Shown in pieces: positions 1 through 58,945 of a stretch of 64,000 bases of DNA. This DNA is from Raillietiella orientalis (Eukaryota), in assembly GCA_036172245.1 (NCBI GenBank), contig JAYWIR010000065.1, forward strand, positions 434,001 to 498,000. Reading direction: 5' to 3'. The translations under genes and the position numbers were made by a program. Under the pieces are notes generated by a model. It was not told the DNA's origin. It saw only the letters and a program-made list of their open reading frames with translations, and searched no databases. Every line of letters starts with the position of its first letter. Within the stretch, counting starts at the first letter, position 1.

Positions 1-199
1 TTCTCCCTGGCAACTTACGAGAGGGACTTCTTCCTTTCAGATCTCGAGCATCAAACAAACGGGAATAGACTTGCTAGCAGCAAGTAGGATGGTTTGCTCT
101 CCATCTGGAACAGCTCTTTCTTACTCTTTACTGCCGCGGCTCGAGGTGCATCTCCAATGTCCACTTCAATGTCCATTTTCACTCGAAGGTCTGAAAACA

Positions 200-1400
200 C
201 GGATTCGAAGGCACACAAGAACAAACTCTACGGACCGAACAGTCCATCGGCATTATCAAACTATCAGCAAAGGCAAATTTCAACACTGTGCACTTTGTGG
301 GGGCTGAGGCTTAAACAGTACTGAGACGTGTGTTCGATTTTCTGGATGAGATGAAAAATTTTCACGGGAAGGGAAGCGCACAAGGAGAGCCACGTGTGGC
401 GTGTAGAAAATTTGCTGACGCAGTTCGATGACGATGCAGCTTGACGAGTTTAGGGATTTCCAAAGACTGGGAAAAGCGATGGAGATGTTTTCTTCTCCAT
501 CCATTGAGACATTCACGGAGAAGCTCTTCAGTGTTTCGGTGGAAGGAGGGAGCATTAGATACGGACGGAGTAGCCACCCGATGGTTTGAACTGCAGGATA
601 AGACCGCTCGTGTGTGCCCTTACCGGGCAAAGAATCTTCTGGACAGAATACCTGCATGAGTGTCACTTACCTCTATTTTTTTAACACACCAGCTGTTAAA
701 GCATGAGTTGTTTGTGAGAAGGCGATAGCAAAGGCACCTTCCGTCATCCGAAAGCCGGCATCTGTAGGTCCCTTGACTGCAGCCTCCTCGTTTGCAAAAT
801 TTCGGCACCGGCAGCCTTTTCCGATCTTCGAACCGACTCCAGGTAAATTAGTGGGAAGCTTACCCGGCTCTCGGGGTTGCTGGAAATGAAGGAAGATTCA
901 AAGTTGATCCGAAACCCGAGCAGAGTCCTTTTACTACGCAGAGGATTGAGTTTTGAGTTTCACGTTAAGCAGCGCGGATCATGAAATGAAACGGTCAACT
1001 TGCTGCGTTAGTCTGGACCAGAAGAAAGATTCTAGCTGAGTAACAACTGGGATGGCAGCGAACAACGAAATTCCGCACAATCAGCGTGTGATAGACAGAA
1101 GAGAAATTACAACAGCAAAAGTTTGAACAGGGAGCAGTAGAAACAAGGAGCAGATTCTCATAATCTTCTTTGATGAAACATTCCTCGAGACAGAAACCCC
1201 TTGAGAATAGATGAGCTCAAACTGTCTTGTTCAGTCTGAAGTGGCTGATAAACCCAGGAATACAGCGAAATAGCCAACTTCCATGCATGGGGATTTGCCG
1301 AACACTGAAGTCATTCAACGGAGTCTCAACTCAGAGGAAGTAGCTGCAACCGGAAGTCGGGCATTTCAGAACAACAGTCAGCTCTCACGGAGGAGGAAAA
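200..1400 (+). mobile_element. Possible highly decayed L1/Tx1-like endonuclease-to-RT linker remnant
   Basis: Scattered, frameshifted motif-like pieces in the expected order: RDFQ (GDFN-like, ~451), AFSDL (SDH-like, ~815), RGCWK (GxWK-like, ~872), SLNSEEV (~1325). Weak, by eye only. Confidence 0.2.
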
Positions 1401-1623
1401 ATTCAGTTGCTGTGATAGAGGGAAAAAAAGAAAGCATACATTCCTTCAGGATCGCAAAGAATCAATGACCAGTCTTTCCTATCTCCATTATGGAGAAATG
1501 TTTGGAACTAGCTATTAGAAGTGACATAGCATTGATCTAACATTCGAAGAATCAACAAAGAATTTTTTAGCATCGTATTTGGATTGCCATTTTACTAGTT
1601 TGCTCCTCATAGCCTCAGGCTAT

Positions 1624-2420
1624 TGTGAGAGCTCATTTGCATCAGTATGCTTAGCCCGCGTCGGAGACCGTGTGGTTACGGTGGTCTCCGAGCGTGGCAC
1701 CACCATGCGTCGCGGGTTGGAATACTCCGACTGAATCGACTCAGTGCGTCGTGAGTTCGACTTTCTCCCGCGAGATGACGCTGGCTGGCCTGCATTCATC
1801 CGGGTGCAGCACTGGTAGCGGTTGGAACCGGATGCCCCAGATGAGGGCCGGGACAAATGGGAGGCCACCTCCCCGGTTCTTCCAAGAATCAAGTAGTGGG
1901 AGATCCCCTCGGTTGTGAAGGAGCGGACCTTCCATTACGGGGGGGTGCTCAGCGTCGTACTGATGGAGTAGGTGTGTCTCCACCATCTCTCCAGAGAGTT
2001 CAGAGAAGCGAGTCGATCCCATAGGGGAAGCCGCGTCCTTCTGAATTTCGGAAGCGTCCCTTCTGGATTCTCTTCAGAGGAGTAAAAACAGGAGCGGATC
2101 CCTTGCGGGGGATCCCCTCCGAAGAAGAAAATCCAGGAGCGGATCCTTCCCGGGTTCCCTTCAGAGAAGAAAGAATGGAGCGGATTCCCCCGGGGGTCCT
2201 CCAGAGAGAATAAGGAAGGAGGATTCCCTTCTGTATTCCCCTTCGGAGACAACCAGGGTGTAGGTGACCTTCATTTCCGGGGATCCCCCCCAGGCGTGAG
2301 AGGAACGGACTCCGAGTCCTTCCTGGCTTCATAGGGAGGACCCCTCCCGGGGTACCCCCTATCTTGGAGAATTACCCACCCTCGGGTGGCGTGGAACCAT
2401 GCCGAAGAACTGCGAAGACA
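1624..2420. repeat. GC-rich, hairpin-rich dispersed repeat, copy 1, with an internal ~41-45 bp tandem unit
   Basis: Unit starts GGAGCGGATC/GGAGCGGATT/GGAGGATTC at 2091, 2136, 2177 and 2218. Positions 1748-2415 align in reverse complement to ~8690-9332 (e.g. CTTCCAAGAATC; GATGACGCTGGCTGGCC vs GATGACGCTAGTTGGCC). Confidence 0.8.
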
Positions 2421-3719
2421 GAAAGGAAAAAATTTCCATCAGCATGCTTACCTCCTGAAATACTTAGCCAGAAACAAGACGCACATCAACGCGTTCCAAT
2501 TCCAGAAACAAATGCACTTATGCGGAGGTGCCACGTTTAGAATGCGATTCCCTCGACAGCGAATGAGCAAGGTGTTGATCTGATACTTGGAAATCATCTG
2601 GGAGAGGAATATTCGCTCATTGCCAGACTTCCTGCTCGTGTGGAGATAGACACAGGCATAAAAACTTCATTGCAACGCATGGGCAGTAGGTTCTGCGTTA
2701 ACATCCAACGGAGTCCGCAGCGCTCATTCGATGAGAAAATCGTAAACAGAGATTGGCGTTTCTGTAGCATAAGCATCATCATAAATTCAGGATGGTGCTA
2801 AATTTCAAGATTAGTTTGATGAAGCTGTTTTAAGGTAAGGTTTTTCGAACAAGTTGTTTTTAAGGTCCCTTTAGATTCCCGAGTGGTTTCTCAACTGCTT
2901 CTTGAGCGCAGCAATGTCTCCCGAGTTTTTCGATGGAAAAACCAACGTGGGGCCTTACCTCTTCTATATGCACAAGGTCAGATCGACTGGTCCTTCGCTT
3001 TGATTCGGAAATCAGCCCACTTCCTTCCTTAATTCATTTAGCCATTTTCATTGCCCTTTCAAGGACCGAAGAACGACCTCACGAACTTTTTGGTGTCGCT
3101 CTCCCTTTCAGATTTCCCTAAAGCCGTGCACACACACCCATGTCTTACTTAAGCGAACCCGAACCCTCTTAAGAAGAGCGTTGGTTCATGATTGAAATAA
3201 AAAGCAAGCAACCAAACGTGAGGCCTTTAATCGAAGGTAAACAGAAATTTGTTTCTTTTAAGAAGAATCAGTGAAAGAGTAATTCTGTCACCAGAAAAAT
3301 GGTATGAATGAACCGATTTAGCCTGCGAGACGCCGCTGCATTTCCTTCACGGACTGAGAAACCCTCGGTTTCAAATACAAAAGATGTCCAACGCAGATCG
3401 TTCTTGACGTGCAGTCGATTTCCATTTCGCTTCTTTCGTCAGTAAAAAAAAAAAAAAAAAAAACTACATAAATAAAACCCTGTTTTTTGTTTTTCCTGTT
3501 TTTTTTCGTTCTTTGAGTGGATGTACGCGGGTGCAAGCCGAAGAATGGCACGGAACGCAGTCCTCCGGCCTTCGGGGAAATTGGAAAATACTTTACCCGA
3601 AACGCCTTCAAGCTTGAAATTTCGAGGGTCATCTTCCGCAATCGAATCGTGTTCCACGTAAAGTGTTGGGTTCTCGCAATACGTCTGGCAGTGAATCGGC
3701 AGCAACACTGAGCACCTAT

Positions 3720-4200
3720 TGAGCACTGATTTGCTCAACGGGGGTTTCCAGGAGACTTTCCTCGAACGGGGAGGTCCCCACGAGGCACAGCGTAGTTCAC
3801 CGCATCCTCTGCGTTTGTGGTGCACTTCGTCCCCAGCGAGGAACGGAAACTTTGGAACAAGAAGACTCCATGGCTTGCGTGCGATGCTCCCGAAGAAACT
3901 CCCGAAGAAGGTTTCCCAGCAAAGTTCTTTGACAACTTCGCAGAGAGTCGCTGCTTTCGCTCACCTGAGGCAATCAAGAAATCGGATACGCTCAGCATAA
4001 TAACTCTCGATGGCAGTTTATGCTTACTGTGCAACGTGCGACAGAACCTTCTTTCCTCTTTCGCTGGAGGGAAACTTTCACTGGGCCTTTCAGCTCGAAT
4101 AGAATGTCTCTTTGAGAAGCCGTCGCAGCTCTGTGAGACGAAGGTGTTTTTGCGATTTCAGAACGAGCCGAGGCAATGATTGATGATCTAGGTTCCAAGC
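3720..4200 (+). mobile_element. Decayed non-LTR retrotransposon RT N-terminal fragment
   Basis: ORF 3817-4179 has TPEEGFPAKFFDNF (like PGPDGFxxEFY), then SIITL and KPSQLCETK (like RPISLLxxDxK). Confidence 0.4.
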
Positions 4201-4739
4201 ATGGTACCAAATTGTCATGTTTGAAGCGTCATTCTTAACGAAATCTGCAACTTTTGGTTGGCAAATCATGCAGATGACTCGGAACCCTTTTAGCAGCTCA
4301 CGCTTGCCTGTGTCTGAGGCGGCGAGCAGCGATCAAGTTGAACTTTTTTTCTCTCATCAACCAGCTAAGATGGAGTTATACGATCCTATATGACACCTTC
4401 CGTACATTTCCGTCTGTCGGTACTTCCTGCACAATTCCATTTCCTCCGTGAAGTAAGGGAGCGTGTCTATGGCACCTAAAGCCTTCTATTTGACTGTCGC
4501 TTCCCCAGAAAAATCAAGTTTCACAGCTCTAGCAGTGATCCAGTGTGCAAGAGCAGCTCACATCATCGTAGGGCATAAGTTCCGTAACCTCTCTGGATTG
4601 AGAAAACGAGAATCTTCGTTGAATCCACGGCTTCTAGTTTAAAAATTCCCTGCCAAGATGCTGCCGCTACATTTCACAAGGCTATAAAAAGACATCTCCG
4701 GTAGTTCTTTCTTGCCCGACTGTGCAAGATAGATGGTCC

Positions 4740-5100
4740 GCATTCATGAGTCTTCAGAACACTTCCTGTCCTGCTTTGGCAAGTAAAGCACACGGTGCAC
4801 AGATGTTTTCTCTACTCTGACGGAGGCATGGAAAAGCAGCCGTGGTTCTCATCTTCTTCGAAGCTCCTCGATAGTCTCAGTTGGTCAGCACGATGTTGTA
4901 TCCAAAATTGCCTGCACTTGTTCGGCAATTCATGAGCACTCCATGAGAAGACTTTCTTTATTTCGCTGCCGTTGTACTTGAAGCTCCAGAGAACTTTCCT
5001 TTCATGTCTTGCAAATCTCAGCACCAGTGCTTTAGCATTCTAACATTTCAATCCTAGCATTCGAAAATTCTCCCGGCTCGCCCTTTGTGTGCTTTGGCTG
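4740..5100 (-). mobile_element. Decayed non-LTR ORF2 C-terminal zinc-finger (zf-RVT-like) fragment
   Basis: KVFSWSAHELPNKCRQFWIQHRADQL...CFSM...KHLCTVCFTC resembles the Cx2C-H-C C-terminus of L1/Tx1 ORF2; contains a stop. Confidence 0.35.
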
Positions 5101-7441
5101 CTGTGAAATGCTACTCAGCAAGAAGAGGTTTCAGGCATCGTTGTCTGGAACAGAGTGGCACATCGGATGCTGAGAAAGTCTCTGTACGTTGAGGATCGCT
5201 TCCTCGACAGCGTAGAAGCATCCGATGTACCTCTGCATTGGGGCTACTTTCCCTGATGAACATGGATCCATCTCGTTCATCTCGTGATGATTACTGTTTG
5301 CTTTTCTCAGTGTGCAAACGAATTTCGCTGGAGTGAGTTGATGGGAGCCAGTGCTGTAGTCAGCCACAGCCACCGCTATGCATCCCTATGCATCTTATAA
5401 TCCTCCATCAGTCACCAGTCGATCTCCCACTAGAGCTGTGCTAAGCACTGCCAGATATTCTGAAAAATTCTGGGAAGAGACGTTGTATCGCTTCCAGCAA
5501 CATATTGTGCCACTCCCAGAGTCGGGGCACCTACACCTACACGCCGAGGATCAAAAAAATGAAGCACGTCAGCAGTTCATGATGAGCTTTCAACCTTTTT
5601 TGCTTTTTCTTTCCTCTTTCCTCGAAATTTCACATCTTTCAGTCCCCCTTCGGATTTTTTCTTGAAGTTGGATTACTCCTCTGAGCTGAACGATTCTTCT
5701 GAAAAGTGTTTTTCAAACTTTTCCTTTTTACGCTGCAATGCTTTCCCCCCCCCCCCCCTTCTTAAATACGAACATGTGTCAATAATATGTACTTGATATA
5801 CACATACTCCTGAAAAGTTATCTCGATAAAAAGCATCTAACGTAAACCACCCTTACCGTGCAGTGCAAACTTTTCCTCCCTGAAATATCTTCCGGAATCA
5901 AGGCTTGCATCAGCATGAACCACAAGAAGGTATCCAGAGAGTCATGCAAAACATTTATCACGCGTTTACATGGAAAACGCCGTTGATGACCGTTCCAGCA
6001 AACTTTCTACAGCCAATAGAAGAAGTTGAATTCTTTGATTTCGTTACTTTACCACTGCATCTGCTCCTTTTTCTTCCTAGTAGGGGATTATATTCAAGGA
6101 ATTTCAAACACATGCTTGCAGACAAATGCAACAGAATTCATGAAATGTAGCCGGGTTCCGATGAAATTTTCGGGACTCAGTTATTGACTCAAAATGTTAA
6201 ATGCCCAATAAGTAATGTCTTCTATCTCGCCAAAATTTCAAAATACTATTTTGATCTTCCCAAAGAATTCCTCAATACAGCATAGGAATTTGAAACTGAT
6301 TTTTTTTACCTCTCTGGAAGATGCCTTACCAAATTTGCATGATGTATTTTTATTTTTGACTGATTTTTTTTCATGAATTCCACAATTTGTCAGTTTTAAT
6401 GAATGAAAGCTGGTGAGATCGTAAAGAATTAATAATCATTTGGTCCTTTTGTGTTCATGGAACACAGTGAAGCGCACCAACAAAAGTAAAGAACAAGTAC
6501 GAATACATGTACCATAATATCCCATATTAGCAGTTCGAAAAGCCTTCCCAGTTCCCGGAAACCTGTTCTGTTCATTAGGACTCATTCCTGATAGCTTTGG
6601 ATGGTCGAACCTTGGTCTGAAGGACTTGTTTCGCTTTCCATTGGGCTTTTCTGACTCCTGAAGGAGCACATCAGGTAAACTCGAATTTATTCTTCGTTTC
6701 TGAACAGTCTGAATTTCGTCTGCATCTCTTTTCTTTAAATAACATCCCTGTCCCTTCGAGGCAATCGTACTTCGGTAATCATGTCAACTGTTACCAAAGT
6801 GTTCTTCTTGTCATCCTTATTTTTGCTGTTATTTTCCTATTGTCGTTAGTGCTTCCCCTAATTGTCATTATCATTCATTCAATAATCATTATTCCTGCAT
6901 GTTACTCTTATATTGCTACTGTGCTTTATATGTTCAAATTTCTCTCCCTCCAAATTGGCTGCAAGGCCGCATACAATTGGGCTGTGCTGATTGAGTTCCT
7001 TTACAAAGCTCACTGATATTACAGTTTATGTTGCTCGAAATCTTCCTTTTGTCATCCTCAACAAATAAAGACATACTGAATAAGTTGCATTCGAATTCGC
7101 GGACTGCTTAACCACCGCACCCATTTTCTTCCATTTGAGCATTCGAAAACGAAGTTTCTGAAGCCCTTGCATCAGGATCAGTCAGCTAGTTTTCCGGTAT
7201 TCCATCAGAGCTTCTTCCTCAGCCGTCGTTGATGATGCATGTCCAAAGCAGGAGGAAAGTGTCCGTGAAGTGATTCCAATGAGTTTGAGATCATCAAACG
7301 AGCAAGTGAATTTGCAGCTGCGACCATGTTTTGGGAGAAGCATTGCTTTTATCGTAACCGATATTTAAGAAAGAGGTAGAAGAAAGCGGTTTGGAGCACA
7401 AAGAGGTCTTGCATACGTGGCCGTTCCGTTTCTCCAGTTAA

Positions 7442-8319
7442 CCCTCTATCTGAGGCGCGATTATTGCTAGTTGAAAACCTTTACCCTCTATAGGCCGAAT
7501 TTTTTGTTCCGGCTACGAAAAAAAATATGTAACGTGAAATTTTCAAATATCAAGCTTTGAATACGAATTAATGATCGTATGAATTCAGTAGTTTCAATGA
7601 TTTCATTATAACGAACGTGCTTTGTAACTTTGGGTTTGCAACGGCGTACAACGTTTACACTTGGGCGTGTATAAAATGCTGAAGCATGGAATTCCATAAA
7701 ATAGGTTTTGCCTGGCGTTCGACATTGATGTACGTTGGATTTCCCGCGCTTCATTTCTGGCACTCCTTTGCATCCGGGATTTCTGCAGCCTCCCCTCTTA
7801 TCCGAAAAGAGTGGCCGACGCGCCATTGCATCCTTTTTTACGTTTTTGACAGGAAGTGTTGCGCTTGTTCCCCTTTTCTCCTCCTCCTTTAACTATTTAT
7901 CCACAGCGGTTGATGCACCGAATCCCACCATTACAGCTCACTGTGAGTTTCAAGTCACAAAGCTGTATCATGTGAAAATAATAACAAGATGAGTGTTTAA
8001 ATATGCAAACGAATGAGAGATCGTCGATATACAAACCAAGAGCCATTACGTAGGCTTTTTCTTGTTCGTCAAAACACCGGCAGAACAAAGAATAAAAACA
8101 ACTGCGCAGGATGGTTCATACAACTTTCATGCACAGACACCTCGCAAAAGCATTTACCTCGGTATCTCGGGTTCGAGTTTGATATCCGTTACCAAGACTG
8201 TTGTTGGTTACCAAGGAGACGTTATACAACGAGCCACCTTGCGGTGAAAAATTAAATCAATCAATAGGGTATCGATACATTAGTGTGTGAATTCAAAGTC
8301 CCATCAGGCTATAAAGGGG
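7442..8319 (-). mobile_element. Internally deleted, decayed piggyBac DNA transposon
   Basis: TTAA|CCC at 7438-7444 and GGG|TTAA at 8317-8323, with imperfect terminal inverted repeats (an alternative left end lies at 7484). Minus-strand translation RPLFSDKRGGCRNPGCKGVPEMKRGKSNVHQCRTPGKTYFMEFH matches the piggyBac C-terminal Cys-rich domain pattern; CRCFDEQEKAYV lies upstream. Confidence 0.6.
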
Positions 8320-8627
8320 TTAATAGCCTAGACTTATCAACAAAAAATTTTTATCCTTCAAAACGATCAAATCCTTTGTTTTGCTCCAAGCAGACCGGTG
8401 TCAATGATCATGAGAGCAAGGGAAAATCATTCAAGTCCTTGCAGAAGCATTTATCAGCGGCCTTCGTGGTGCGAGTCCACAATGGAATTTGCATTCGAAG
8501 ATATCACATCATGTAAGGTGAATTCTTCATTACTCGGCTCTTCTTTCGAACGGGGAAGTTCCCGGTTGATGCCTTGTTGAATCCAGATGAAAGGAAATCC
8601 GCTTGCGACTCGGAAACACAAGACAGC

Positions 8628-9332
8628 TTTTTTTCTTTTTCGGGTTTTTTGGGGGGTTTGCTAAGTACCCAAGAACCGTTCTCCTAGCGGCTCACGAAGC
8701 TCTTTAGCACTACTCCATGCCACCCGATGATGCGTGTAGTAGCCCTTCAATTTGGGAGGTATCCCCGAGAGGGGACCACCGTATGAATCCAGGAAGGACT
8801 CTGGAGGAAGAAGTCCGTACCTCTTACGCTTAGTAGGGGAACCTCTAATGGAACTCTCGCCCTGGTTGACTCTGAAGGAAATTCCGAAGGGAACCCCTTC
8901 CTTATACTCTCCAGAGGGAACTCCCGGAGAGAGCCACTCCTTAGTTCTTTTTCGAAGGAACCCGGAAAGGAACTCTCTTGGAATTTCCTTTCCGGAGGCA
9001 CCCGCAAGGGAACCGCTCTTTGTTTCCTTCTCTGAAGAGAACCCCAAAGGGAACAGCGCGCTTCTTCCACTCTGTAGAAGCAAATCCCTCCGAGTGGGGA
9101 ATCAACCGGCTCCATGGTACGCGATGGAGGATCCTCAGAGGGGAGAACGGTTTCGTTTTTGCAACCTAAGGGGGAATCCCCAAGGGAACCGACTCCTAGA
9201 TTCTTGGAAGGACCCCGGAAAGTCAACTTCTTCCGATCCCGGCCAGTCAACCATTCCGGCTTTCACCAGTGCCGCACCCGAAACCTATGGGCCAACTAGC
9301 GTCATCCTGCGGTGGGGGAAGAGTCCACGACT
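8628..9332. repeat. Hairpin-rich dispersed repeat, copy 2 (inverted relative to copy 1), with an A-rich end on the minus strand
   Basis: Homologous to 1748-2415 in reverse complement. The plus strand has serial hairpins CCCC-GAGA-GGGG, TTCC-GAAG-GGAA, CCC-GCAA-GGG and CCC-CAAA-GGG. The minus strand ends CCCCCCAAAAAACCCGAAAAAGAAAAAAAA at ~8628-8657. Confidence 0.8.
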
Positions 9333-10050
9333 TCAGGCTTCCCCACTCTAAAGTCTACTGTAGGTCGATCTTCTGGCTTTGTCAGCGCCATGACTACATC
9401 AGCCGCTACTCCTAACAATGGTATTTCGTCGAACAAGTCGTGGTTTGCCATGTCAACTCGCGCTGAGTGGTATCCGTTGCCCCCATTCACGATAGCCTTT
9501 CGAATAAGAGGCACCCGTAGTTCAGTGACTTTGTGCATCTTGTCCTCGTAATTGCCAACTGATTTCAGATACGTAAGGAGAGGACTGGGCACACAAAATT
9601 CTGTATCGATAATGGCCTTACGTATCGCTTTTGGAGTTTGGAGTTTAGAGCGCCACTTTCGCTTGTCTGACTTCCATATCTAAAAGCATTGTCCACAGTT
9701 CCAAAATATTTAACCTCCCCGACTTCGATCTTACGATCCACCTCAAGCGGGATCCAATGGGCGGACCTCCTCAGCTGTGTCTCCAGCTTTGCTAAGGTTA
9801 GCCTTGAATCCCTTGCGCGGGTTAACTTCTGTTAACCCGCGCAACTACGAGCTGAAGATTGCCTCATCTAAGATAGAGGCGTTCCTCTGCGGTGTCGGAT
9901 TGGCATTCAAAGCTAAGAACCGTGGAAGAATGACAAAAGGTGTCTTCGGGGCAAACCGATTAGGTTGGCGACGAACTTTTGTTTCCATTTGCGCTGAAGC
10001 CGAATTCCCCGCTCTCCTTTGGTCTCTGCGTCCTTTTCTACATCGACTTT
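9333..10050 (-). pseudogene. Endogenous viral element: partiti-like virus capsid protein fragment (stops and frameshifts)
   Basis: The minus strand gives, in order: basic N-terminus RKGRRDQRR; PTPQRNASILDEAIFSS*LRGLTEVNPRKGF; EVDRKIEVGEVKYF; LWTMLLD..QAKVAL; KAIRKAIIDTEFCVPSPLLTYLKSVGNYEDKMHKVTELRVP..GGNGYHSARVDMANHDLFDEIPLLGVAADVVMAL. From recall this series matches arthropod-associated partiti-like capsids; not searched. Confidence 0.7.
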
Positions 10051-10439
10051 GCTTCTTGAGGTTTGTGGTTATTTATTTCTTGTCAGACCGCCACCACTTT
10101 ACTCACAGAACACAGCGATCCTTTATTTCATCCGGCCACGTCGGGGAGTTTATTGTAGAAAAATATTTACAAAAAAAAAACAGTCATATAAAATATAAAA
10201 TGTTTTTCCTCGTAGTGGCTTCACATCACCACTGTGAAGGAAAATGCCTCGGAGGAGCTGCTTCTCCTGAGCAGCTTAGCGATCAGATCCGCACAGGAGA
10301 AGTAGGGAAGAGATGAACAAAAACAAAAAAAAAGCGCAATAGCTCGATTTCAGCGTATGTTGGAGGGGGAAGGGAAGGGAGCACAGATTATGTCCTGGAT
10401 GCGTCCTCGGCCTCCTCTGGAGGATGTTAGCAACTTCCT

Positions 10440-11750
10440 CCTTTTTTTTTTTTTTTTCCTTCCTCCTTTTGTTGGCCTAGATGTGGCCATCTTGTCTCCT
10501 TCCTCACGAAGGAGCAGACGATTGCGATGACCTTACCGTTCGACTGACGTCTTTCGGCGTAGCTTTCAGCCGCCACAATCCCACGGAGGCAGCACGGAGC
10601 TGCAAGGGAAGCTGCAGGCGACATCGGCGACATACGCGGCACGCGCGTAAAGAGGCACCGCAAAACCTCTCTGCCGTTGCCCATAGGAAGTGGGAGGGCT
10701 GCAGCGAACGTTCTTTGACACTCAAAAGAGCAACACAGGTGCGGGAATGTTTTTCTCCACACCTGGCACAGTCTGGCACTGCACTCCCTCTTGTCTCTGG
10801 TAAGCTCGTGCCTTCCATGGGATCTCCCAGTGCAACAACCTCAATGCCGAGTTCCTCCCACTTCAGGGGAAGAGTGCAATTGTCCACAAATACTGGGAGT
10901 ATATCTGCCTCCTCAGGAGGAATGTCCAGGAGTTCCACCCGGCGGCGAATTCCTTTGGAGGGGCGTCAAGCCTTTACATGTATTCGAACCCGTGACGGTT
11001 GGTACCACGCGTGGAGACCGCAGCCACACGGCCTCCCACGCGGGCACATATCGGAGGAACTGTCTCGGGGGACACATGTATGCGTCCAAATAAATCTACC
11101 TTTGTGTGCTTCTTTCTGATACCAGTTCGCTTCACATCAGTTTTCTTTCCACGAAAGAGTCTTGTTTGATTTCAGATCTTCATGTTATTCCTGAAAAGCG
11201 ATTCCTTGATTCCGTTCCCTTCCACGCAAATCCCCTTTTCATGTTGAAAAATCTGCTCGACTAGGAAACCGTGATCCGCCCTTTCATCCCAATTCAGTTT
11301 AAATGCGAGACGAAACCCGTTGAGGACCAATGATGCTTGCTGCGGTGCAAATCTTTCTTTGGTTTCTGCCAATCTGAACTGCGAGCATGATTTCGAAGCT
11401 TTGATCTCCTCAATCAACACGAACAACTTTCTCGATGCTCTGCAAGACTCTGCAAGACAGGGCTCTCTTTTTCATCTTTGAGGATCATCTCTAGACCTAT
11501 GAGAAGTTAAAAGCACCTTTTACTAGTGAATTTTGATGAAGCCGTATTGGAGCGTGGTGTGCGAGATGCAACTCCACACAGACTCTTCGCTTTCCCGCAA
11601 AGGAAACCCCGGAGTCTAATTTCAGTCCATAAATGCCCTTGCAAACGATCGTTTCTTCGGGAAACGTAATTCTCCTCCCAAGTGTAATAATTCCGTACAC
11701 TTCTCTAGGATAAGTTTCACGACGCGCGTTTTTGATCTGCATTGAGATTC
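10440..11750 (-). mobile_element. Decayed non-LTR retrotransposon pieces (ORF2 linker and zf-RVT-like end) with a poly(A) run
   Basis: LPETRGSAVPDCARCGEKH (10504-10938); GFRLAFKLNWDERADHGF (11172-11426, like the EN-RT linker); A16 run on the minus strand at 10442-10457. Confidence 0.4.
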
Positions 11751-14700
11751 CTCGTGACGACAGTTTGCAAAGGGCCTTCCTTGCAGCGTGAATTGCACGA
11801 CTTGCCCGCTTGCGCCAGGGCCCTTGGAAGAGCGCTCGTGGATCGAGTCACGCAGACTGCTCCAAAACGCTCCAGGAAGTCCTCAGGAAGTGGGGCTGTT
11901 AATTAGCCTAGTTTCGGCACTTCGTCCACTCGTCGGGATTTGGAAAAGAAACACAAAGTAAGAAATAAAAGAATCCAGACGAAACAACCTTTTTTTTTCT
12001 TTTTCTTTTTCCCAGTTATTGGTTTACTACTTTGTTTTTGATCCAAAAGAAAGATTCTTTGTGGACAACAGCACAACGCTTTCGGGACTCCAAAATGAAG
12101 CAGATTCCATAAAACAAAGCACGAGCCTTCTTGCAATCATTTTCAATCATTTCCTCTGTGAATTCACACTGAAGATCGGTCCATACAAAAGAAAAAAAGC
12201 TGCAAATCTTGATTTTGTTTTTCCAGCTTCAGCTTGAAAATAAGGAGCTGTGCATGGATTTGCAAGAGAGAGTAGTGATGATGATGATATCAGATTCTTG
12301 ACGAAGCTTCAGAATGCTGTGACCACAGGGAGGGAATGAATCTCGGAGCTGGCCAGCGCCTCTCCGGAAGTTTGGAATCCGAGGGCTTCTAACAGTTCTT
12401 CATTGGCTGGAGGCTCTCATGTGCTGAACATAAACAGATTTCTTTTGGCACTTGAGGAAATGAGAAAGTCATATTCACAACGTCCAGAATTCATGTTACG
12501 CGTGGGAAGGATGAATGTGGGCGTAGTGGAGGAGATGGTGGGAGTAAAGACGTGAATGATCTCAAAGAAGTGTCATTTAGTTGGCTATTTCTATAGCACT
12601 TTTTTTTTTTTTCGAGGTGATTGCACTTTACATGTACATTGGTATTTTTTTGCACGATATGGCATAAAGAAAATTCGGTTTCTGCTGTAAAAAAAAAAAA
12701 AAAAAGTCTTTATGTTTTTTAAGACAATCTCGAAAATTCCCAGTAGGTATTCCTGCTTCGAAAGAGATCCGTTAACTGTGGGTTGAGGGTATTCCGTTGA
12801 GAACATTCAGACAGATTGCTGATCAGTTAATGCTGCGTATGGAACGGAGCTTCCAGACTAGAGGTCAAGAAAGCAGTTGCAGTTTCTTTTGCTCATTTGA
12901 GTGAGGTACATTTGCACCATCGGAAACGATCGCCATTTAGTTTAACCGTCTATATAATAAAAGGCGATAACCACTATTATAGTTTCAATAGAGCAGTGTG
13001 TGACTTCAGATATCTATAAAACGGTTGTTATATCCTTTCTTGAATGACTTCTGATCGGGGAAGAGGGAGGAAAAAAAAGGCCGATTGAGAACAAGCTATT
13101 CTCAATTCGCTTTTTTGCGTCCAAATGGAATGCGAACGCTTATGGGATTTCGGTACAAACGACGCACAAGTGGAAGGTAGAGATGAGAGGATTCGTATTT
13201 ACTGAAGTGTAGAAAGGCGTTCGGCTTCGAATTTCGCTTCTAAGACCAATAAATTGGCACATATTTTTTCCAGACCACCTTCCCCTCTTTATTCTAGCTT
13301 GCGCAGCTTGGAAGTGGAAAGATGGCAGGATCAGTACCAAGGAAGAAAGGACGGATTCCTCTATGTTCTCAGATCTACAGGAACGAATTTGAAGACGGTA
13401 AAGGCGATATCAGGAAACAGCAAGTTGAAAACTCAGAGATGGATAGCAGCAGCCGTCCACCGGCACTATTTGTTGCATTCCCGTTTCCCCTTGTAGGTGT
13501 TCCCTTTGAAAAGAACCCATTAGGTTACTAGCTGAAGACTGACCAACCGGTGGACATTTAGAAAAAAAATCGGTGGTCTATGGACAAGTTATTGATTGCT
13601 TCCTTCAGTAGTGAACCGGCCCATTGCCGGTTCACTACTGAAGCCTTTCTGCCTGCACCGTTTCGAATACTGCCCGCGTGCTACCTTAGGCCTAGGAGAT
13701 TATGAATTTTCTAGAATTTGTCATCTATCTGGGAATCAGTTCTTATTTCTATCTGCCAGCTCAAGAACATTCACCAAGAGATGAATTTACAATAGCCTGC
13801 AGAACGTGACAATTGCAGTCTCGAAATCTCTGCCGAAAAAGTGCTCCATCTTGCCCCCCCTTACATTCGGTTCATTCATGCGCACGTTATTGAGCTCATT
13901 TCTCACTTTCAGATGTGAGATAAGCATCCTTAAACAGATATTGCGGTCGTTGCAGCGAGAGCCTCCAAACGTCGGTGCTGTATCCCAATGCCGAAATTTC
14001 AGAAAATCCTGCTCACTATTGACGAAACCCACTGTTTTCTTATTCTTCTTCAAGTTGTTTATTTTCATCAGGAGATTCTGGAATCACCGTAGCTAGATAG
14101 ATCTTCAGTGTCTGCAACAACATAAATGCACCCAGGAATCTATAGACCACAGAGAACACACAATGAAATGGGCATAATTCGAATATGCTCTGTCGACTGC
14201 ATAAGAGTGGGCTATTTCCGTGCTTCCCGTGTTGGCCGAAATTGACCACTGTGGATCGACTACTTGGTGGAATCCACAAATAAAATGCTCGAAAAATCTT
14301 TTTTCACGCATTGGTGAATACGTTTTGCTCTTTTTTCCTTACAGATCATTTCAGTCTTTTCTCATGCTCGACATGATAAAGCGGAATGAACCACAAAAAC
14401 TCATAGACACTGGGAATGAGAAAATCAGGAAAAAGAGAGAGCCTCCATACGACCAGTTTCTTTGCACTACCAACAGCGCCCGACAGATATCAATGTTAAT
14501 TTCCGAAAAGTCCATTTTCCTCATTTCATCATCAGTTTTGGATTTGCCCACCGTGCATCACTCTATTCTCTTTCGCAAGGTCGTTTCCTGCAGATAAACA
14601 AATGGAATCGTGATTTTTAGATCGAAAAGCACGGCCGTTCTCGAGACCGTTTCCTACATGTAATTCATATTGAAAATCTTCCTCAAACCCTTCGTTCCTC

Positions 14701-16335
14701 TCTTCAAAATCAAGCCAATGATCGTAACTTCCCAAGCTCACGGTCCAGTCAACATTTGATGGATTGCAAACATTCATAAAATGTTTCTAAAGAGTGCTCA
14801 GCAGTGTGGCTTTCTGCTGCTATTCAATGATTCTGCTGTCGTTCAGAGAGGGAAATCTTCACGAAACGACGACGGAGCTTTCAGAGTTGAAATTTGTTTA
14901 GAATTCTTGCAATAGTTCGAGTTCGGATATCTATAATGTAGCAAAAAACTGTTACTTATGATATTCCGGAAAAATAGTATCAGTGTGTTCTTAATGTTTT
15001 CACGGTTTTCCATGAAGATTTGGGGCCAGAAATTGGGCTGTGTCCGATTCAAGGATGTGGGCATGATCTGCTCACCCAGAGCTATATATTTAGACGATCG
15101 TTTGCCTTAAAAAGAAATCGAAAGATGCTATTTAGAAATCCGCTAATATTTCAAAACAGCAATTTATCCGGAAAAACTTCAAAAACCTGGATATTCTCGA
15201 AGGTTTCATCGAAAGTTTTCGCAGTTATAAGTTACCGCACTGCATTGAAGTACGTTGAATGTCTCACTTAATTCCTTAACCAGAATAAAGGCCTTCTTCA
15301 GTAAATTAATTCGCCAATCCGCATTCTGAGACAAAGACATCCTAGCAAATCGAACCATTGAAGGCAGAAGTTTGCATTTCTTTTTAGCATTTTCATTTGA
15401 AAAATGTTTCTATAGATGATGATCAGTTGGTTATACGTTCGATTCCTCTACCATTAAGTATTACCAGAGAAATAAAGACTTCACTGATCTGCAAGCTGAA
15501 TGAGAAATCATCGAGGCGAAAACAAAATGATACCCCAAATTCTGTAATAAAAAAAGGCACTAAGAATAATCTATGGATGGACTTTTTTTGATCTTTGGCA
15601 CATTTATGTTCTGATCTTCAGTACCAATAATGAGGAAAATTTTCCGTTGTACGTCATATCAAATTTGTAGAAGCAAGCTGTAGAACTTTTCATACGAAAA
15701 AATTAGTGTTACAGAATCACATTGCATCTTTTCACTACAAAATAAGACGAAAAATATGGACCCTCTCTGCAAAGTCATTTAGCAACTTTGAAAGATCCCT
15801 GATGGAAAGATTTCTTGCAGATTCCGTTTCCTGAAGTTACCGGTTAAAAACGAAGACGAAGTGTTTCTATTATCCCACATTATACGTAGGCACAGATTAC
15901 CTGTTAATGCATCAATTGTAATAATTCTGAATGATTACTTTTGCTACCGAGAAGTATTCTTGCAAAAGAGAAAATCTGATACAGAAATAAAGCCAACGAG
16001 TATGCACACTTTATACATGTCTAAGGCAATATAGTACATGACGAAAATAATGGAGTATGGATGTCCTGACGGTCAATTGAGACAAAAGGTGCTTCAATCT
16101 CAGAATCAGCCCTATTTGCACTTTAAAGATGATTTCACTAAATTCACGAAGAGACAGAAGGATTTTCAAAAATGCGTTGTTAAAAAGCAACACTGGTAGG
16201 GAAAAACAAATTTTAAAGATTCTTTTGCAGGCTGACGTTCACAATGTGATTGGAGCAAACCACAAGGAGTTAATCACAACATAAAGGTTGCTTTTAATGA
16301 ATTTTATTCTTAAAGAACAACCTTTCTGATTTCCT

Positions 16336-16404
16336 TGAATGAAGTATAGTGGTTCAGATTTAACATATGTTTGAGTCAATATCGCGCGCATCTCGTGTAA
16401 GGTG
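16336..16404 (+). repeat. ~69-bp direct repeat, copy 1 (partner at 21447-21514)
   Basis: TGAATGAAGTATAGTGGTTCAGATTTAACAT..TTTGAGTCAAT.ATCGCGCGCATCTCGTGTAAGGTG is nearly identical to 21447-21514. Confidence 0.9.
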
Positions 16405-17702
16405 CCAGCTCCTTAAGAAAATTTCTTGGGTAGCAGCTGACAGCTTCATAGCATGATGTTAACAGTAGATTACTAGACTTACAGGAAGAGGAACTCATCG
16501 GACTTCCTGAAACTGCATTAGAATAAAATATCGATATAAAAACTGCAACTGAATAAGATTTGAGGTTCAGGTAATTGAAGAGAAAGCGAAATGAATATCC
16601 AAAGAATGCCCTGAACAAAGTTTCGTAAGATAACACACAAAAAGAATCCATACTTAAAACTGCAAGTATCCACGGTTGCAGTTCCAAATTTTAAACTACT
16701 ACATACCAAGAATTCAAGATAACTGCTTGATTAAGGTAGATGGCATCCTTCATCTTGCAGCACCGATTTCAATTGTGAGGATATGGATTTCCAGCCATCG
16801 TCCGCAGGGCAGGGTTCAAGTATTCGGAAAAGAATGTGTGCTTTTATCTAGGGCTATGATGACATACGCCGGAAATCAAATTCTTTTGATAACGCCTCAG
16901 AAAGAAAGGAATGGCGGTACTGAATGGACTCACAAAGCAGTGGAACTTTCTGGCACTTCAAGGATTTTCCAACTTGTGATTTTAATTATTAGACAGAAGG
17001 GAACAAAAAGGGTTTCCTTATCTACTAAATTATGCGACAAATTGCCGTATTCTTCACCGCAGTTTACTTGCTTCAGTGGTGCAATGAGGATTGGTGCCCC
17101 TTCCCTGGTACCCTCTTTCTCGAGCGAGTAAACGCGTGAAGTCTTTGACTTCGAGTTCCTTGTGAATTCTTCGCTGGCAGGCAGAAAAGTTCCTTTATCG
17201 ATCTTTCTTCAGAAATGCAAAGAGTACGATTGAAGAGAGACTTGTGAATTGTGTCGTTCATTATAATATTCAGAATTAAGGTTCACTATTTATTAATGTA
17301 AATCACTTTCTATCCTGGATATATTTTTTTTTCTATTCTCGCCATACAACAGACTGAATCATTACTACTTTCAATATCTCGCATTACAAATCACCCGACT
17401 ATGTATTAAAATACTTTTGTATTTTTTTTTGTAAGGAGAAAAAAACAAAAGCATGGTTATCCGATATAAAACATAGATCCGATATTCCACCGAAACAAAA
17501 TTCCACGTTTTCGTATCTCAACAAGACTTCAACAAATCTCTCATCGTCCATGGCAATCTACAAACTGTCATCGAGAAGAAACTCCTATTCTGGTCTGTGC
17601 TGTGATCCAGTAGAGTCACCACTACATTCTTTCCACATACAGAGGATGGATGATCCATCCAATACTGCACCCTGATATGTATCCATGTAGATGAAAAGGA
17701 CT

Positions 17703-20700
17703 TCAAACATTGGTTGACTCCAGCAGTTTAGAGTTAACAACTGCCTCATGTGCAGTCTCTTCAATTCTCCACTGAAAAATACTTCCATCTCGTCCTCCAG
17801 CTGATATAAGATGCTGGTCATCATAAAGGAAACAGACTTGGGTGACATGGCTACTATGTCCAGTGTATACATGGCTCATTGTCTAAAAGCATTCTGATAC
17901 ATGCAACTTAATTTTGGCAATCATACTTACAGTTGGCTGACTGGCTGGATAAGAAAATAGTTTAACTGTACCATCTTCCTCGCCTGTAGCCAAAAGTTTT
18001 ACTTTGTGCCCCCGACAACAAGCATTAATTTCTGTGCCCTGTACACCTTCAGGCCAAATGCCCAGCACTGTACTACTGATAGTGCATGTTTCTGTGGTCC
18101 ATTCCACATCACGCACCTTGTATGTCTGAGTTACTTGTTGGCAATCACTGACATGCCCTAACACAATGGGTGAAAATGCCCTTTCAACTTATCATCCATC
18201 TTACAGAATTGGAGTTGATAACTGGCAGATGTGGTGCGCAAATACATTCCATCTACAGACCAGTCCAATCCATTAATAGGAGAATTATGGCCCTATAATG
18301 ATGTGACTAACAAGTTCATCATCACATCAGTCTCACTTGCACTGACCTGGCAAACACCCAACCTTGATACAAGACTTCCATCTGCTTGCATCTGATATAT
18401 AAACAGCTGACCACTTTGAGTTCCAAGTGCCAAGCAGGTACTGTCGGGAGAGAAACGACAAGTCTGAATAGGACTGGTGCCATCCATGTGACGAAAAACG
18501 ACTTGCATAGTACACAAATTGAGCAATGTCCACTGTCCAGTAACTCCACCAACAGCAATTAACACACCATTAGGGGAGAAGCATACGGATTGAATACTAT
18601 CCTGGAAACCCTTTGAATCAACTGTAGACCCTCCATACATACTTCCCATTCCTGGATCCATTTTGGCTCATGGGTAACTAAATCCCACATTTTTAACAAG
18701 CAATCATGAGCCCCACATACTATGTAGGGTTGAGTAGGGTGACAGTCAAGTGCAGGAAATTCAGCTATGTGACCACTGATCACCAATTTCATCTCTAAGG
18801 CATCAGATGCCAACAGGATGCAATTGTGTGTGGTGCCCACAATCAGCTGAGAATTTTTCCCCATTACAAGTGCTCGTACTCGACCATAAAGAGGAGGTAT
18901 CTGCCAAAAAAAATTATTTAAGCACAAATACTATCAGTTGTTGCTACCGTAGTTTCCAGTCCAGTCTTATGTCCTACACAGTTCCAGGCTACAATGCGAC
19001 CATCCTTGCCTCCTCCAGACAAAAGAGTTCCTTCTGCTCTTCTAAGAAGTGCAAATACACTGCCATCATGAGCATGACGAATGATATTGGCAACACTGTT
19101 ACCACCAAGGGACCAGACCATTATGTTGCCATTTGAATCTCCTGAGAGAATATCTCCATTCTCAGCAAAAGCTAAACAAGTAAGGTAGCGTGGCTTCTCC
19201 CGAGGATCCATGACTCCGAGGCGACGATGCAAACCTCCATTACCATCAATAGTCCAAAAATGGATGTGACCTTTGCCACACAAAACTAAGCTATTCTTCT
19301 CAAATGGGTGCCATTCAATAGCCAGCACTATGTCAGGTGCAGCCTAGATAAGGCATTTCATACCATCCAACTTTATCTAGCAACTTACTTTCACTTCAAA
19401 AAGACGTTTGTTTTGCTGCCAATGCCAGATTGTTAACTGATGATCCATGCTCTCATCTACAACAGCCAGAAGAATTCCACCATCCTAAAGCAAACAAAAA
19501 ATGCCTCGATTTATGTTGACCATGCTTACAGCATAGGAAAAAGCATGACAAGCAACTCCACGAAATGGACCCAGAACATGCAAAGTGTGTAAAGTAGCTG
19601 AATCCCAGATTCTGATGTTGGCCTGCAATGAGATGAGTAAAGAATGATCAAATTACTCTCACCGTTAGATGTTTGCTGTTTCCTGCACCTTGAGCAGAGG
19701 CCACTAAAACCCGATTGGGATGCACTGCCATACTGATAGTATTACAGACACATATGCTCTACATGTTTCAGCATCTTTACATACCATTTGACATCTGAAG
19801 TATGACCAAAGTAATGCCTCTGCACATTATCAACAGCATGATGAAGAACAACTACCAATCCCACAAAATACAACAGTTCCCCAGTGGGCAACCAGAATAA
19901 ATTTTGTCGGCAATCTCGCCCTCGATAACCGTAACTGACACTCCATTAAGTTCTTGCTGTATAGTGCACCAAACAAAGGATACACCCACTCAAGGTGAAG
20001 TTCATAATGAGGAGGAGGTATGACAGAAGATAAAGAATATGTATCTTTTATCGCACTGGGCACATATATAGTCAATGATTGACCACGCAGCTGACAATGG
20101 ATACTACCTTCTTTGGTCTTTAAACTGATATCTCGAAGCCTAACAAAGTCAACAATTCGAAGTCAATACTTTCTACTTACCCTCCTTTCAAAGCAATAGT
20201 ACGCTGAGCGGTGGGAGTACCATGTCCACTCCTTGGGCTCCTCGTAAAACTTCTGCCAATACTTTGATTGCTAAAGAGCTAATCAATGATGCTGCTTGCC
20301 AATAGTCTACTAAGGTTACCCATGACTTGCCAAGCTGCTGTTTGAACCATATACATCTGGAGATCTGCCTGCTCCCCCAAAATCAGTTGCAGAAACCCAA
20401 CGACGACTTGATTTTAAATCTACTCCACTTGGAGTACATTTGGGAGATCCATTTTTGCAGTTATTTTCAAATCTATTTCCGCTATCTTTCCAAGAATGTC
20501 TAAACACCAATGTATAAGACAACTTACAATACTCTTACTTAAATGGAGACTTTCGCTGTGAAACTGCTGAATGTGCTTCTAGAAACATCTCTTCATTTTC
20601 TGGAAGCTGATAGACCGCCCTTTTGCCTGCAAAAGTATGGGATCACTAGATGATGATTAAGCAAGAAAACTCATTCACCACTTTTAAGAGATTCCAGAAG

Positions 20701-58702: not shown

Positions 58703-58945
58703 AAAAACATTCATGAGATGGAGTCGGTGTGTAATTCGTATTGTAGTCTTAGGATTAGGAAAAGAATTAATGACATAATGAAATAGTTATGGAAAATGTA
58801 TGACAGTGGAAAAAGAGATAGGAGAAGAATGATGGCTAGTTTAATAACAAAGATTAAGATGAGCATTGTAATCAAGGAGCATTGAATAGAAAATGGGAAG
58901 CATGCGTTAGTTTTGGGGTCGGAGCCACATTCGAACGGAGATTCC
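58703..58945 (-). pseudogene. nad3: NUMT: mitochondrial nad3 (5'-truncated)
   Basis: SPFECGSDPKTNACFPFSIQ..LIF..YELHTDSISW matches nad3 SPFECGFDP..PFSxxFF..YHEW..W. Confidence 0.88.

What the first reader, a model, noticed from the sequence alone, without database searches (positions are those of the whole stretch)
9333..10050. Endogenised capsid gene of a partiti-like dsRNA virus
Seen: collinear, frameshifted peptide blocks over ~230 codons with no introns. Recalled knowledge: the series PQxNASILxxAIF / LWxxLLD / IRKAxxDxEFxVPxPxxxYL / DKM / GYH / HxLFxExPxLGxAxD is typical of arthropod-associated partiti-like capsids. These viruses have no DNA stage, so integration needs a host retroelement RT. 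It would be a fossil record of infection in this host lineage and a possible source of antiviral piRNA.
Basis: partly seen in the sequence, partly recalled or inferred. Interest (0 to 1): 0.75.

Follow-up and report, generated by a model that had tools for sequence, protein, structure and literature searches.

The report
Decayed partiti-like virus capsid gene fragment
This is a broken, half-length copy of the coat-protein gene of a partiti-like double-stranded RNA virus, sitting between ordinary animal genes; it is a real fossil of a past infection, but of a kind already well documented in insects.

Summary
On the minus strand, about 9332-10006, collinear peptide blocks in three reading frames match positions 30-257 of a 458-position profile of a roughly 460-aa protein family. 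The path has three frame shifts and one in-frame stop. The open 125-aa frame finds 97 proteins at E<=1e-3 in an exhaustive search.

The only virus-named member seen is the putative capsid protein of Ips partiti-like virus 1, 46% identical over 100 aa, E 2e-28. Full-length relatives sit alone on 1.45-1.67 kb contigs, the size of a viral segment. A confident model of that named capsid aligns to solved partitivirus capsids at Z 16.5, 12.2 and 10.1.

The window also carries animal genes, EML and PRMT5. My frameshift-aware scan found one fragment only (score 508; next best in the window 57.8). Neither end of the capsid gene is present.

Verdict: a pseudogenised non-retroviral endogenous viral element, a new member of a known kind. 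Integration by a host reverse transcriptase and any piRNA role remain inferred and untested. No retroelement domain was found in window 1-18400. Interest is low to moderate.

The parts
9332..10006 (-). Whole endogenous viral element: an internal fragment of a partiti-like capsid gene, profile positions about 30-257 of 458.
   Evidence: hmmsearch with profile A1; frameshift-aware alignment 9990..9332, columns 31-255 of 455, score 508; tblastn best hit P0136, 39% over 214 aa, E 7.6e-37, 9964..9335.
9848..9991 (-). Block 1, frame A: the weakly conserved N-terminal arm up to the PTPQRNASILDEAIF motif.
   Evidence: Profile positions 30-81, E 1.6e-5 in the six-frame window search; part of domain 1.
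9845..9847 (-). In-frame stop codon inside block 1/2 (frame A).
   Evidence: Frame table; shown as X inside the aligned domain 30-109.
9764..9844 (-). Block 2, frame A, profile positions about 82-109.
   Evidence: domain 1 (30.4 bits for positions 30-109); alone E 0.54.
9700..9744 (-). Block 3, frame B (first frame shift lies between 9764 and 9744), profile positions 119-133.
   Evidence: E 0.073 with a search space of one; accepted only because collinear.
9648..9698 (-). Block 4, frame C (second frame shift near 9699), with the LWTMLLD motif, profile positions 137-153; the frame ends in a stop at 9645-9647.
   Evidence: E 0.044 with a search space of one; collinear.
9630..9650 (.). Three copies of a 7-nt tandem repeat lying on the third frame break (frame C back to frame A).
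   Evidence: Tandem Repeats Finder row 9630-9650, period 7, 3.0 copies; break placed between 9648 and 9640.
9332..9640 (-). Block 5, frame A: the best preserved part, 103 codons without a stop, profile positions 155-257. It lies inside the 125-aa open frame 9305-9679.
   Evidence: E 1.3e-33; 108 bits; 46/100 identical to residues 150-249 of the Ips partiti-like virus 1 putative capsid, E 2e-28.

Best explanation
The stretch 9332-10006 (minus strand) is a non-retroviral endogenous viral element. It is a DNA copy of an internal part, roughly the first half without the extreme N-terminus, of the capsid-protein segment of a partiti-like dsRNA virus.

Shown: the sequence is capsid-derived, it is broken by three frame shifts and one stop, it lacks both ends of the gene, and it lies in an intergenic stretch about 7.7 kb downstream of the last recognised coding exon of an EML gene on the same strand.

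Inferred from what is known of such elements: viral plus-strand RNA was reverse-transcribed in a germ-line cell by a host retroelement enzyme, the cDNA was joined into the chromosome, and the copy has since decayed as neutral DNA. It most likely makes no protein today. Any present activity would be at the RNA level, for example as a small-RNA source, and that is untested.
For: (1) Family. The 125-aa frame finds 97 proteins at E<=1e-3 among 1.84 billion. A profile search lists 56 proteins at E<=1e-5. The only virus-named one is 'putative capsid protein [Ips partiti-like virus 1]'. A table in PMC12567637 files that virus under Partitiviridae (passage only). Direct comparison gives 46% identity over 100 aa, E 2e-28.

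(2) Viral nature of the family. All 9 full-length relatives looked up lie on contigs of 1450-1672 nt. Two IMG/VR viral contigs of 1652 and 1517 nt each match over nearly the whole query, and the first holds a single 461-aa ORF.

(3) Fold. The AlphaFold2 model of the named capsid has pLDDT 87.7 and pTM 0.80.
- BFVD gives 56 matches at E<=1e-3. Of the 50 listed, 29 carry names: 26 are capsid or coat proteins of partitiviruses or partiti-like viruses, 2 are Galbut virus Orf1 and 1 is uncharacterised.
- VIA-align gives Z 16.5 (307 residues aligned, rmsd 4.1) to the Atkinsonella hypoxylon virus capsid, Z 12.2 to PsV-F and Z 10.1 to Pepper cryptic virus 1.

(4) Broken copy. Three frame shifts and one in-frame stop. 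No match to profile positions 1-29 or 258-458 anywhere in the window.

(5) Host context. EML exons at 17706-19343 (minus) and PRMT5 exons at 50714-52847 (plus) lie in the same 64-kb sequence.

(6) Precedent. The same family appears in chromosome-scale insect assemblies: Colias eurytheme, Neodiprion pinetum, Parthenolecanium corni, Abscondita terminalis and Cyamophila willieti. Partitiviridae-derived capsid EVEs are reported in tephritid flies (PMC10689555, passages).
Against: - No read-level evidence for the junctions, and no genome is held for this window. Integration therefore rests on the assembly alone.
- No reverse transcriptase, integrase or gag domain was found among the ORFs scanned in window 1-18400: ORFs of 55-109 aa in that stretch (the two capsid-bearing frames left out of that scan) and ORFs of 110 aa or more across the whole window. 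No flanking repeat of 25 nt or more was found in 5000-15000. So nothing in the sequence supports the retroelement step.
- The fragment is internal, lacking the 3' end of the segment and any adjacent poly(A). A simple LINE-type copy primed from the 3' end would not leave that; later deletion or template switching has to be assumed.
- In a FastTree of 117 rows the element sits on a long branch (0.95) with no supported clade, so the donor lineage is unknown.
- The partner RdRp of this capsid family was not examined here. 'Partiti-like' rests on one database name, one literature table and the fold.
Confidence: 0.9

Rival explanations
1. Assembly artefact: reads or cDNA of an exogenous partiti-like virus infecting the sequenced animal were wrongly joined into a host contig.
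For: Junctions could not be checked; no run was listed and no genome is held. Relatives are common as free 1.5-kb contigs in public data.
Against: - A replicating virus would not carry three frame shifts and a stop in its only structural gene.
- Only profile positions 30-257 are present, with no UTRs and no C-terminal half.
- The fragment has no close relative; the best identity is 49%.
- GC content of the 8001-10000 block (0.482) matches the next block, 10001-12000 (0.486).
Confidence: 0.03
2. Domesticated viral gene: the 125-aa open frame (9305-9679) is expressed as a host protein, for instance a capsid-derived inhibitor of related viruses.
For: 103 homologous codons remain open and are the best conserved part. 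In the scale insect Parthenolecanium corni the same capsid region (profile 165-278) is repeated 16 times in one annotated 1976-aa protein. Capsid-derived coding sequence can therefore persist in annotated insect genes.
Against: - The frame is cut off from the rest of the gene by frame shifts.
- Its first methionine is at residue 48, inside the conserved block.
- It covers under a quarter of the capsid fold.
- No start context, splice evidence or expression data are available.
- An open run of this length is expected in a moderately young pseudogene.
Confidence: 0.04
3. Not viral at all: a decayed cellular or transposon gene whose relatives were mislabelled as viral.
For: The family has no Pfam model. 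Only 1 of the 56 listed relatives carries a virus name. Several members are annotated as hypothetical insect proteins.
Against: - Full-length members sit alone on 1.45-1.67 kb contigs, two of them in a viral contig collection.
- The fold matches solved partitivirus capsids, with picobirnavirus capsids next at Z about 5.
- The insect-genome members are partial or fused, as expected for insertions.
Confidence: 0.02

Closest known systems
Partitiviridae-derived non-retroviral EVEs of insects (tephritid fruit flies, PMC10689555; bumblebees, PMC12922265)
   Same: Fragments of partiti-like virus genes in insect chromosomes. In tephritids, 11 Partitiviridae-derived elements are reported, seven of them from the capsid ORF with Vera virus as best hit. 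Most are not close to known circulating viruses. In Bombus, 32 Partitiviridae-like elements are reported, with a mean EVE length of 504 bp (passages read).
   Different: - This element belongs to the capsid lineage that includes Ips partiti-like virus 1. That capsid's model shares only 14-19% identity with its nine named BFVD matches among the first 11, such as Verdadero, Netjeret and Galbut.
- The Vera virus capsid was not among the named BFVD rows, so its relation to this lineage was not assessed.
- The host has no close relative among named PRMT5 sequences.
- In Bombus the Partitiviridae-like elements are mostly RdRp-derived, not capsid-derived.
Putative capsid protein of Ips partiti-like virus 1 (P0106) and its unnamed relatives on 1.4-1.7 kb contigs
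   Same: Same protein family: 46% identity over 100 aa, and collinear over profile positions 30-257.
   Different: Those are complete 446-466 aa open reading frames on segment-sized contigs. The window copy is half-length, frameshifted and chromosomal.
Partitivirus capsid-like sequences in plant genomes (Chiba et al. 2011, PMC3136472; search listing and start of abstract only)
   Same: Endogenised non-retroviral RNA virus sequences, including dsRNA-virus sequences, in a eukaryotic nuclear genome.
   Different: A plant host, and, from my recall, different partitivirus genera. I did not read the body of that paper.
Solved partitivirus capsids (Atkinsonella hypoxylon virus 8phh, PsV-F 3es5, Pepper cryptic virus 1 7ncr)
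   Same: Shared fold for the named full-length relative: Z 16.5, 12.2 and 10.1.
   Different: Sequence identity is only 9-11%. No sequence-level hit to any PDB chain below E 0.24. Foldseek alone gave no PDB match at E<=1e-3.

Membership tests
Partitivirus / partiti-like capsid protein family | Significant sequence similarity to the capsid protein of a virus assigned to Partitiviridae or partiti-like viruses. | tested here: met
   46/100 identical, E 2e-28, to the Ips partiti-like virus 1 putative capsid; profile E 1.3e-33. The virus's family assignment comes from a database name and one table (PMC12567637).
Partitivirus / partiti-like capsid protein family | Partitivirus capsid fold. | tested here: met
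   Tested on the full-length relative P0106, not on the broken window copy. Model pLDDT 87.7. Z 16.5, 12.2 and 10.1 to three solved partitivirus capsids. BFVD top hits are partiti-like capsids, E down to 8.8e-22.
Partitivirus / partiti-like capsid protein family | Encoded alone on a short dsRNA segment that accompanies a separate RdRp segment. | tested here: inconclusive
   Segment-sized contigs holding one ORF were seen. Neither the RNA nature of those contigs nor the partner RdRp segment was examined.
Non-retroviral endogenous viral element (EVE / NIRVS) | Virus-derived sequence contiguous with host chromosomal DNA. | tested here: met
   At assembly level only. EML and PRMT5 exons lie in the same window. 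Read support could not be checked.
Non-retroviral endogenous viral element (EVE / NIRVS) | Copy not able to act as the viral gene (truncated and/or disrupted). | tested here: met
   Three frame shifts, one in-frame stop, both gene ends missing.
Non-retroviral endogenous viral element (EVE / NIRVS) | Germ-line inheritance: the same insertion in all individuals, or orthologous copies in sister species. | not testable with these tools
   No genome held for this window or its relatives; no sequencing runs listed.
piRNA-cluster-resident EVE | 24-31 nt small RNAs with 1U bias, mostly antisense to the viral mRNA. | not testable with these tools
   No run listed.
piRNA-cluster-resident EVE | Embedded among transposon remnants. 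| tested here: inconclusive
   No transposon protein domain among the ORFs of 55-109 aa scanned in window 1-18400 (capsid frames left out) or among ORFs of 110 aa or more. The nearest TE-type domains are a sub-threshold zf-RVT match at 56503-57225 and a zf-CCHC match at 61781-62338. Non-coding or badly decayed elements would be missed.
Domesticated (co-opted) viral gene | Intact open reading frame covering the domain, with start and stop. | tested here: not met
   only 125 codons are open, and the homologous path changes frame three times.

The most novel reading that the evidence does not exclude
The fragment is kept as a template for antiviral small RNAs. It would be transcribed as part of a long non-coding unit and yield piRNAs against a still-circulating partiti-like virus of a poorly sampled arthropod lineage. 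It would then be the first record of such virus-host memory in that lineage. Nothing in the sequence excludes this. The same-strand position downstream of EML allows read-through transcription, though that would give sense-strand RNA, not antisense.
Probability: 0.15. Interest if true: 0.5.

Novelty: new member of a known kind. Interest (0 to 1): 0.25.

Why it matters
It records that a partiti-like dsRNA virus once infected the germ line of this animal's ancestors. It also adds a divergent data point: a long branch with at most 49% identity to anything in 1.84 billion representative proteins. Partiti-like viruses are often vertically transmitted insect symbionts, so such fossils help to date and map these associations. 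Capsid-derived partiti-like EVEs are, however, already reported in several insect groups, and this copy is single, short and broken. Its value is as a catalogue entry unless small-RNA data or orthologous copies show more.

Tried and rejected
- Pfam and PHROGs scans of the frames gave no family. Pfam on 15 full-length relatives gave only three chance-level rows.
- The word-index search for longer proteins found none. The exhaustive search was needed.
- The ESM Atlas gave only sub-threshold CDC45-type rows for the 125-aa frame. For the neighbouring 212-aa ORF 10481-11116 it gave nothing. Both were disregarded.
- A PDB sequence search with the profile gave only myosin light chain rows at E>=0.24; disregarded.
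- Sequencing runs: none was listed, and no RNA holder was listed.
- No whole genome is held for this window. There are no earlier scan findings for this place or sequence, and the word search gave only unrelated items.
- A possible second, more decayed fragment at about 10637-10862 (minus) was suggested by recurrent weak tblastn hits and an hmmsearch row at E 6.5. It was rejected. It is not among the top 12 alignments of my scan, and 38 of 400 random segments score as well.
- Extension of homology was rejected on both sides. In the 3' flank (9100-9331), 355 of 400 random segments score as well. In the 5' flank (9991-10250), 77 of 400 do.
- An interrupted A-rich tract at about 8630-8675 (minus strand) was considered as a remnant tail of the inserted copy. 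It lies about 650 nt beyond the end of homology. The DNA between it and the element shows no capsid similarity, and the 3' ends of the two viral contigs I read carry no A tail. Left unexplained.
- One phmmer hit, P0060 (a 5830-aa Ig-like protein of an Enterovibrio), does not match the family profile. I take it as a false hit.
- The IQ-TREE 'quick' tree did not finish in time. FastTree was used instead.
- Rfam and tRNA scans of the window found nothing.

Full report
**What is in the sequence.** PQRNASILDEAIF lies in the frame open from 10072 to 9848. LWTMLLD lies in a second frame (9770-9648). IRKAIIDTEFCVPSPLLTYL, DKM, GYH and HDLFDEIPLLGVAAD lie in a 125-codon open frame (9679-9305), which is the same frame as the first block. 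No Pfam or PHROGs family matches any of these frames. A word-index search among longer proteins found nothing.

**Is it more than chance?** An exhaustive phmmer search of the 125-aa frame against 1.84 billion representative proteins returned 97 proteins at E<=1e-3 and 44 at E<=1e-10. One of the 97, a 5830-aa Ig-like bacterial protein, does not match the family profile and is taken as false. Many hits are 440-466 aa long and match the query with their residues 150-260.

I aligned 15 full-length hits (A1, 458 profile positions) and searched the window's six frames:
- 9305-9679 scores E 1.3e-33 (positions 155-257).
- 9848-10072 scores E 1.6e-5 (positions 30-81).
- 9746-9844 scores E 0.54 (positions 86-109).

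With stops read as X, frame A gives one domain over positions 30-109 that contains a single in-frame stop (9845-9847), and a second domain over positions 155-257. The gap between them is filled by two short blocks in the other two frames, at positions 119-133 (about 9744-9700) and 137-153 (about 9698-9648). Those two blocks are not significant by themselves and count only through collinearity. The homologous path is therefore A, B, C, A: three frame shifts and one stop. The third break coincides with three copies of a 7-nt tandem repeat at 9630-9650.

**Extent and copy number.** I built a position-specific score matrix from 43 relatives (A2, 455 columns). I then ran a local alignment of my own over both strands of the whole window, allowing frame shifts. 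The element scores 508 for 9990..9332, columns 31-255. The next best alignment anywhere scores 57.8 on the plus strand and 52.6 on the minus strand. So there is one fragment, covering about half of the gene.

Targeted tests of the flanks against 400 random segments of the window found no extension:
- 3' flank: 355 of 400 random segments score as well.
- 5' flank: 77 of 400.
- A suspected second fragment near 10637-10862: 38 of 400.

Mapped onto a complete relative (L001: 1652 nt, ORF 93-1478), the fragment corresponds by my arithmetic to roughly nt 180-860 of the segment. It is an internal piece lacking both termini.

**What the family is.** A profile search of 5.8 billion proteins listed 56 members at E<=1e-5.
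- The only virus-named one is 'MAG: putative capsid protein [Ips partiti-like virus 1]' (P0106, 446 aa). The window frame is 46% identical to it over 100 aa, E 2e-28.
- A table in PMC12567637 lists that virus under Partitiviridae with four accessions (passage only).
- All 9 full-length relatives I looked up lie on contigs of 1450-1672 nt.
- Two IMG/VR viral contigs of 1652 and 1517 nt each match over nearly the whole query. One ORF plus short untranslated ends on a contig of this size is what a partiti-like capsid segment looks like.

An AlphaFold2 model of P0106 built with the 43-row alignment is confident: pLDDT 87.7, pTM 0.80.
- In BFVD it has 56 matches at E<=1e-3. Of the 50 listed, 29 carry names. 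Twenty-six are capsid or coat proteins of partitiviruses or partiti-like viruses (Verdadero, Netjeret, Orestiada partiti-like, many fungal and plant partitiviruses). Two are Galbut virus Orf1 and one is uncharacterised.
- Foldseek against the PDB gave no match at E<=1e-3. Its first four rows are partitivirus capsid chains from two entries, and all six top rows are partitivirus or picobirnavirus capsids.
- VIA-align on Foldseek's 36 chains gave Z 16.5 (307 aligned, rmsd 4.1) for Atkinsonella hypoxylon virus, 12.2 for PsV-F, 10.1 for Pepper cryptic virus 1 and about 5 for picobirnavirus.
- The fold test was run on the relative, not on the broken window copy.

**Host context.** Pfam scans covered 138 ORFs of 110 aa or more across the window. 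They also covered 141 ORFs of 55-109 aa in 1-18400; that second scan left out the two capsid-bearing frames. The genes found:
- EML exons lie on the minus strand at 17706-19343. The last one reaches the end of the second propeller model.
- PRMT5 exons lie on the plus strand at 50714-52847.

The element lies about 7.7 kb downstream of the EML coding end, on the same strand, in a stretch where no ORF matched any family. The PRMT5 exon is about 60% identical to arthropod proteins (a leafhopper, a horseshoe crab, a termite) but 59% to Nematostella. The host is therefore an animal, probably an arthropod with no close sequenced relative in that collection; I claim no more than that.

No reverse transcriptase, integrase or gag domain was found in 1-18400. 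The nearest transposon-type matches are a sub-threshold zf-RVT match at 56503-57225 and a zf-CCHC match at 61781-62338. No direct or inverted repeat of 25 nt or more was found in 5000-15000.

**How it most likely arose and what it does.**
- Shown: capsid origin, disruption, truncation at both ends, chromosomal context at assembly level.
- Inferred: partiti-like viruses have no DNA stage, so a cellular reverse transcriptase must have copied viral RNA in a germ-line cell before the cDNA was joined to the chromosome.
- The internal nature of the fragment does not fit a simple 3'-primed LINE copy. Either template switching or later deletion is required, and the sequence does not say which.
- With three frame shifts and one stop in about 660 nt, while 103 codons stay open, the copy looks like a moderately aged pseudogene. 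I cannot date it without orthologues.
- It most likely encodes nothing. A small-RNA role is possible but untested.

**Relatives in other genomes.** The same family occurs in chromosome-scale assemblies of Colias eurytheme, Neodiprion pinetum, Parthenolecanium corni, Abscondita terminalis and Cyamophila willieti, as partial or fused pieces.

The tree was a FastTree of 117 rows: the window read-through with X at its four breaks, plus all family proteins of 200 aa or more. Left out were shorter rows, the 16-copy array P0001 and the false hit P0060. In it the window element sits on a long terminal branch (0.95) with no supported clade. Its highest identities are 48-49% over 69-102 residues.

**Comparison with what is known.** Partitiviridae-derived non-retroviral EVEs are on record.
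- In ten tephritid species, 11 such elements are reported, seven from the capsid ORF with Vera virus as best hit, two of them transcribed (PMC10689555, passages).
- In Bombus, 32 Partitiviridae-like elements are reported, mostly RdRp-derived (PMC12922265, passages).
- Partitivirus-related endogenous sequences in plants are reported by Chiba et al. 2011 (PMC3136472, listing and start of abstract only).

This finding is thus a new member of a known kind. It is distinguished only by its divergence and by an apparently poorly sampled host.

**Limits.** No genome is held and no sequencing run was listed. Junctions, copy number elsewhere in the genome, expression and small RNAs are all open. The partner RdRp of this capsid lineage was not examined. 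Supplements of the cited papers were not read.

**Verdict.** Observation confirmed; interpretation supported. Confidence that this is a pseudogenised partiti-like capsid EVE is 0.9. Interest is 0.25.

Noticed in passing
window 8700-9200: A degenerate tandem array with a period of about 40 nt lies about 130 nt beyond the 3' end of the viral fragment. Autocorrelation at lag 40 is 0.38 against a mean of 0.248, with further peaks at 79-80 and 119-120. The motif GGTTCCCTTGGGG occurs 4 times here among 9 in the window, against 1.7 expected. The array leaves long open frames on both strands (171, 146 and 202 aa), none with a Pfam match. TRF did not report it. It may be what replaced or cut off the rest of the capsid gene.
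   Followed up: partly
P0001 (Parthenolecanium corni hypothetical protein, 1976 aa, 20-Mb scaffold): One annotated open reading frame holds 16 head-to-tail copies of capsid profile positions 165-278 (period about 110 aa). The last copy runs on to the C-terminus (position 457). This is a tandemly amplified, still open, capsid-derived coding array in a scale insect genome. It is more unusual than the finding itself.
   Followed up: partly
window 8630-8675, minus strand: An interrupted A-rich tract on the same strand as the viral fragment, about 650 nt beyond the end of homology. No link to the element could be shown.
   Followed up: partly
window 58714-59424 (minus): A 237-aa open frame whose last 76 residues match NADH dehydrogenase chain 3 (Oxidored_q4, E 8e-7). 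It may be a nuclear copy of mitochondrial DNA.
   Followed up: no
window 56503-57225 and 61781-62338 (minus): Weak zf-RVT and zf-CCHC matches (E 2e-4 and 8e-4, both below Pfam's cut-off), probably retroelement remnants. They are the only transposon-type signals seen in the window, 46 kb or more from the viral fragment.
   Followed up: no
window 17706-19343 (minus) and 50714-52847 (plus): Host genes: EML (both beta-propellers) and PRMT5 (TIM barrel, methyltransferase and oligomerisation domains), with short introns.
   Followed up: partly
rows 1-2: The two highest HMMER scores for the PRMT5 exon are records labelled Cocos nucifera and a Mesotaenium data set, at lower identity (49-51%) than the arthropod rows (about 60%). 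I did not work out why.
   Followed up: no
window 10349-10508 (minus): A lysine-rich low-complexity frame gives the second-best minus-strand score (52.6) to the basic N-terminal columns 10-59 of the capsid profile. That is within the background range (plus-strand best 57.8), so I take it as a composition effect.
   Followed up: yes
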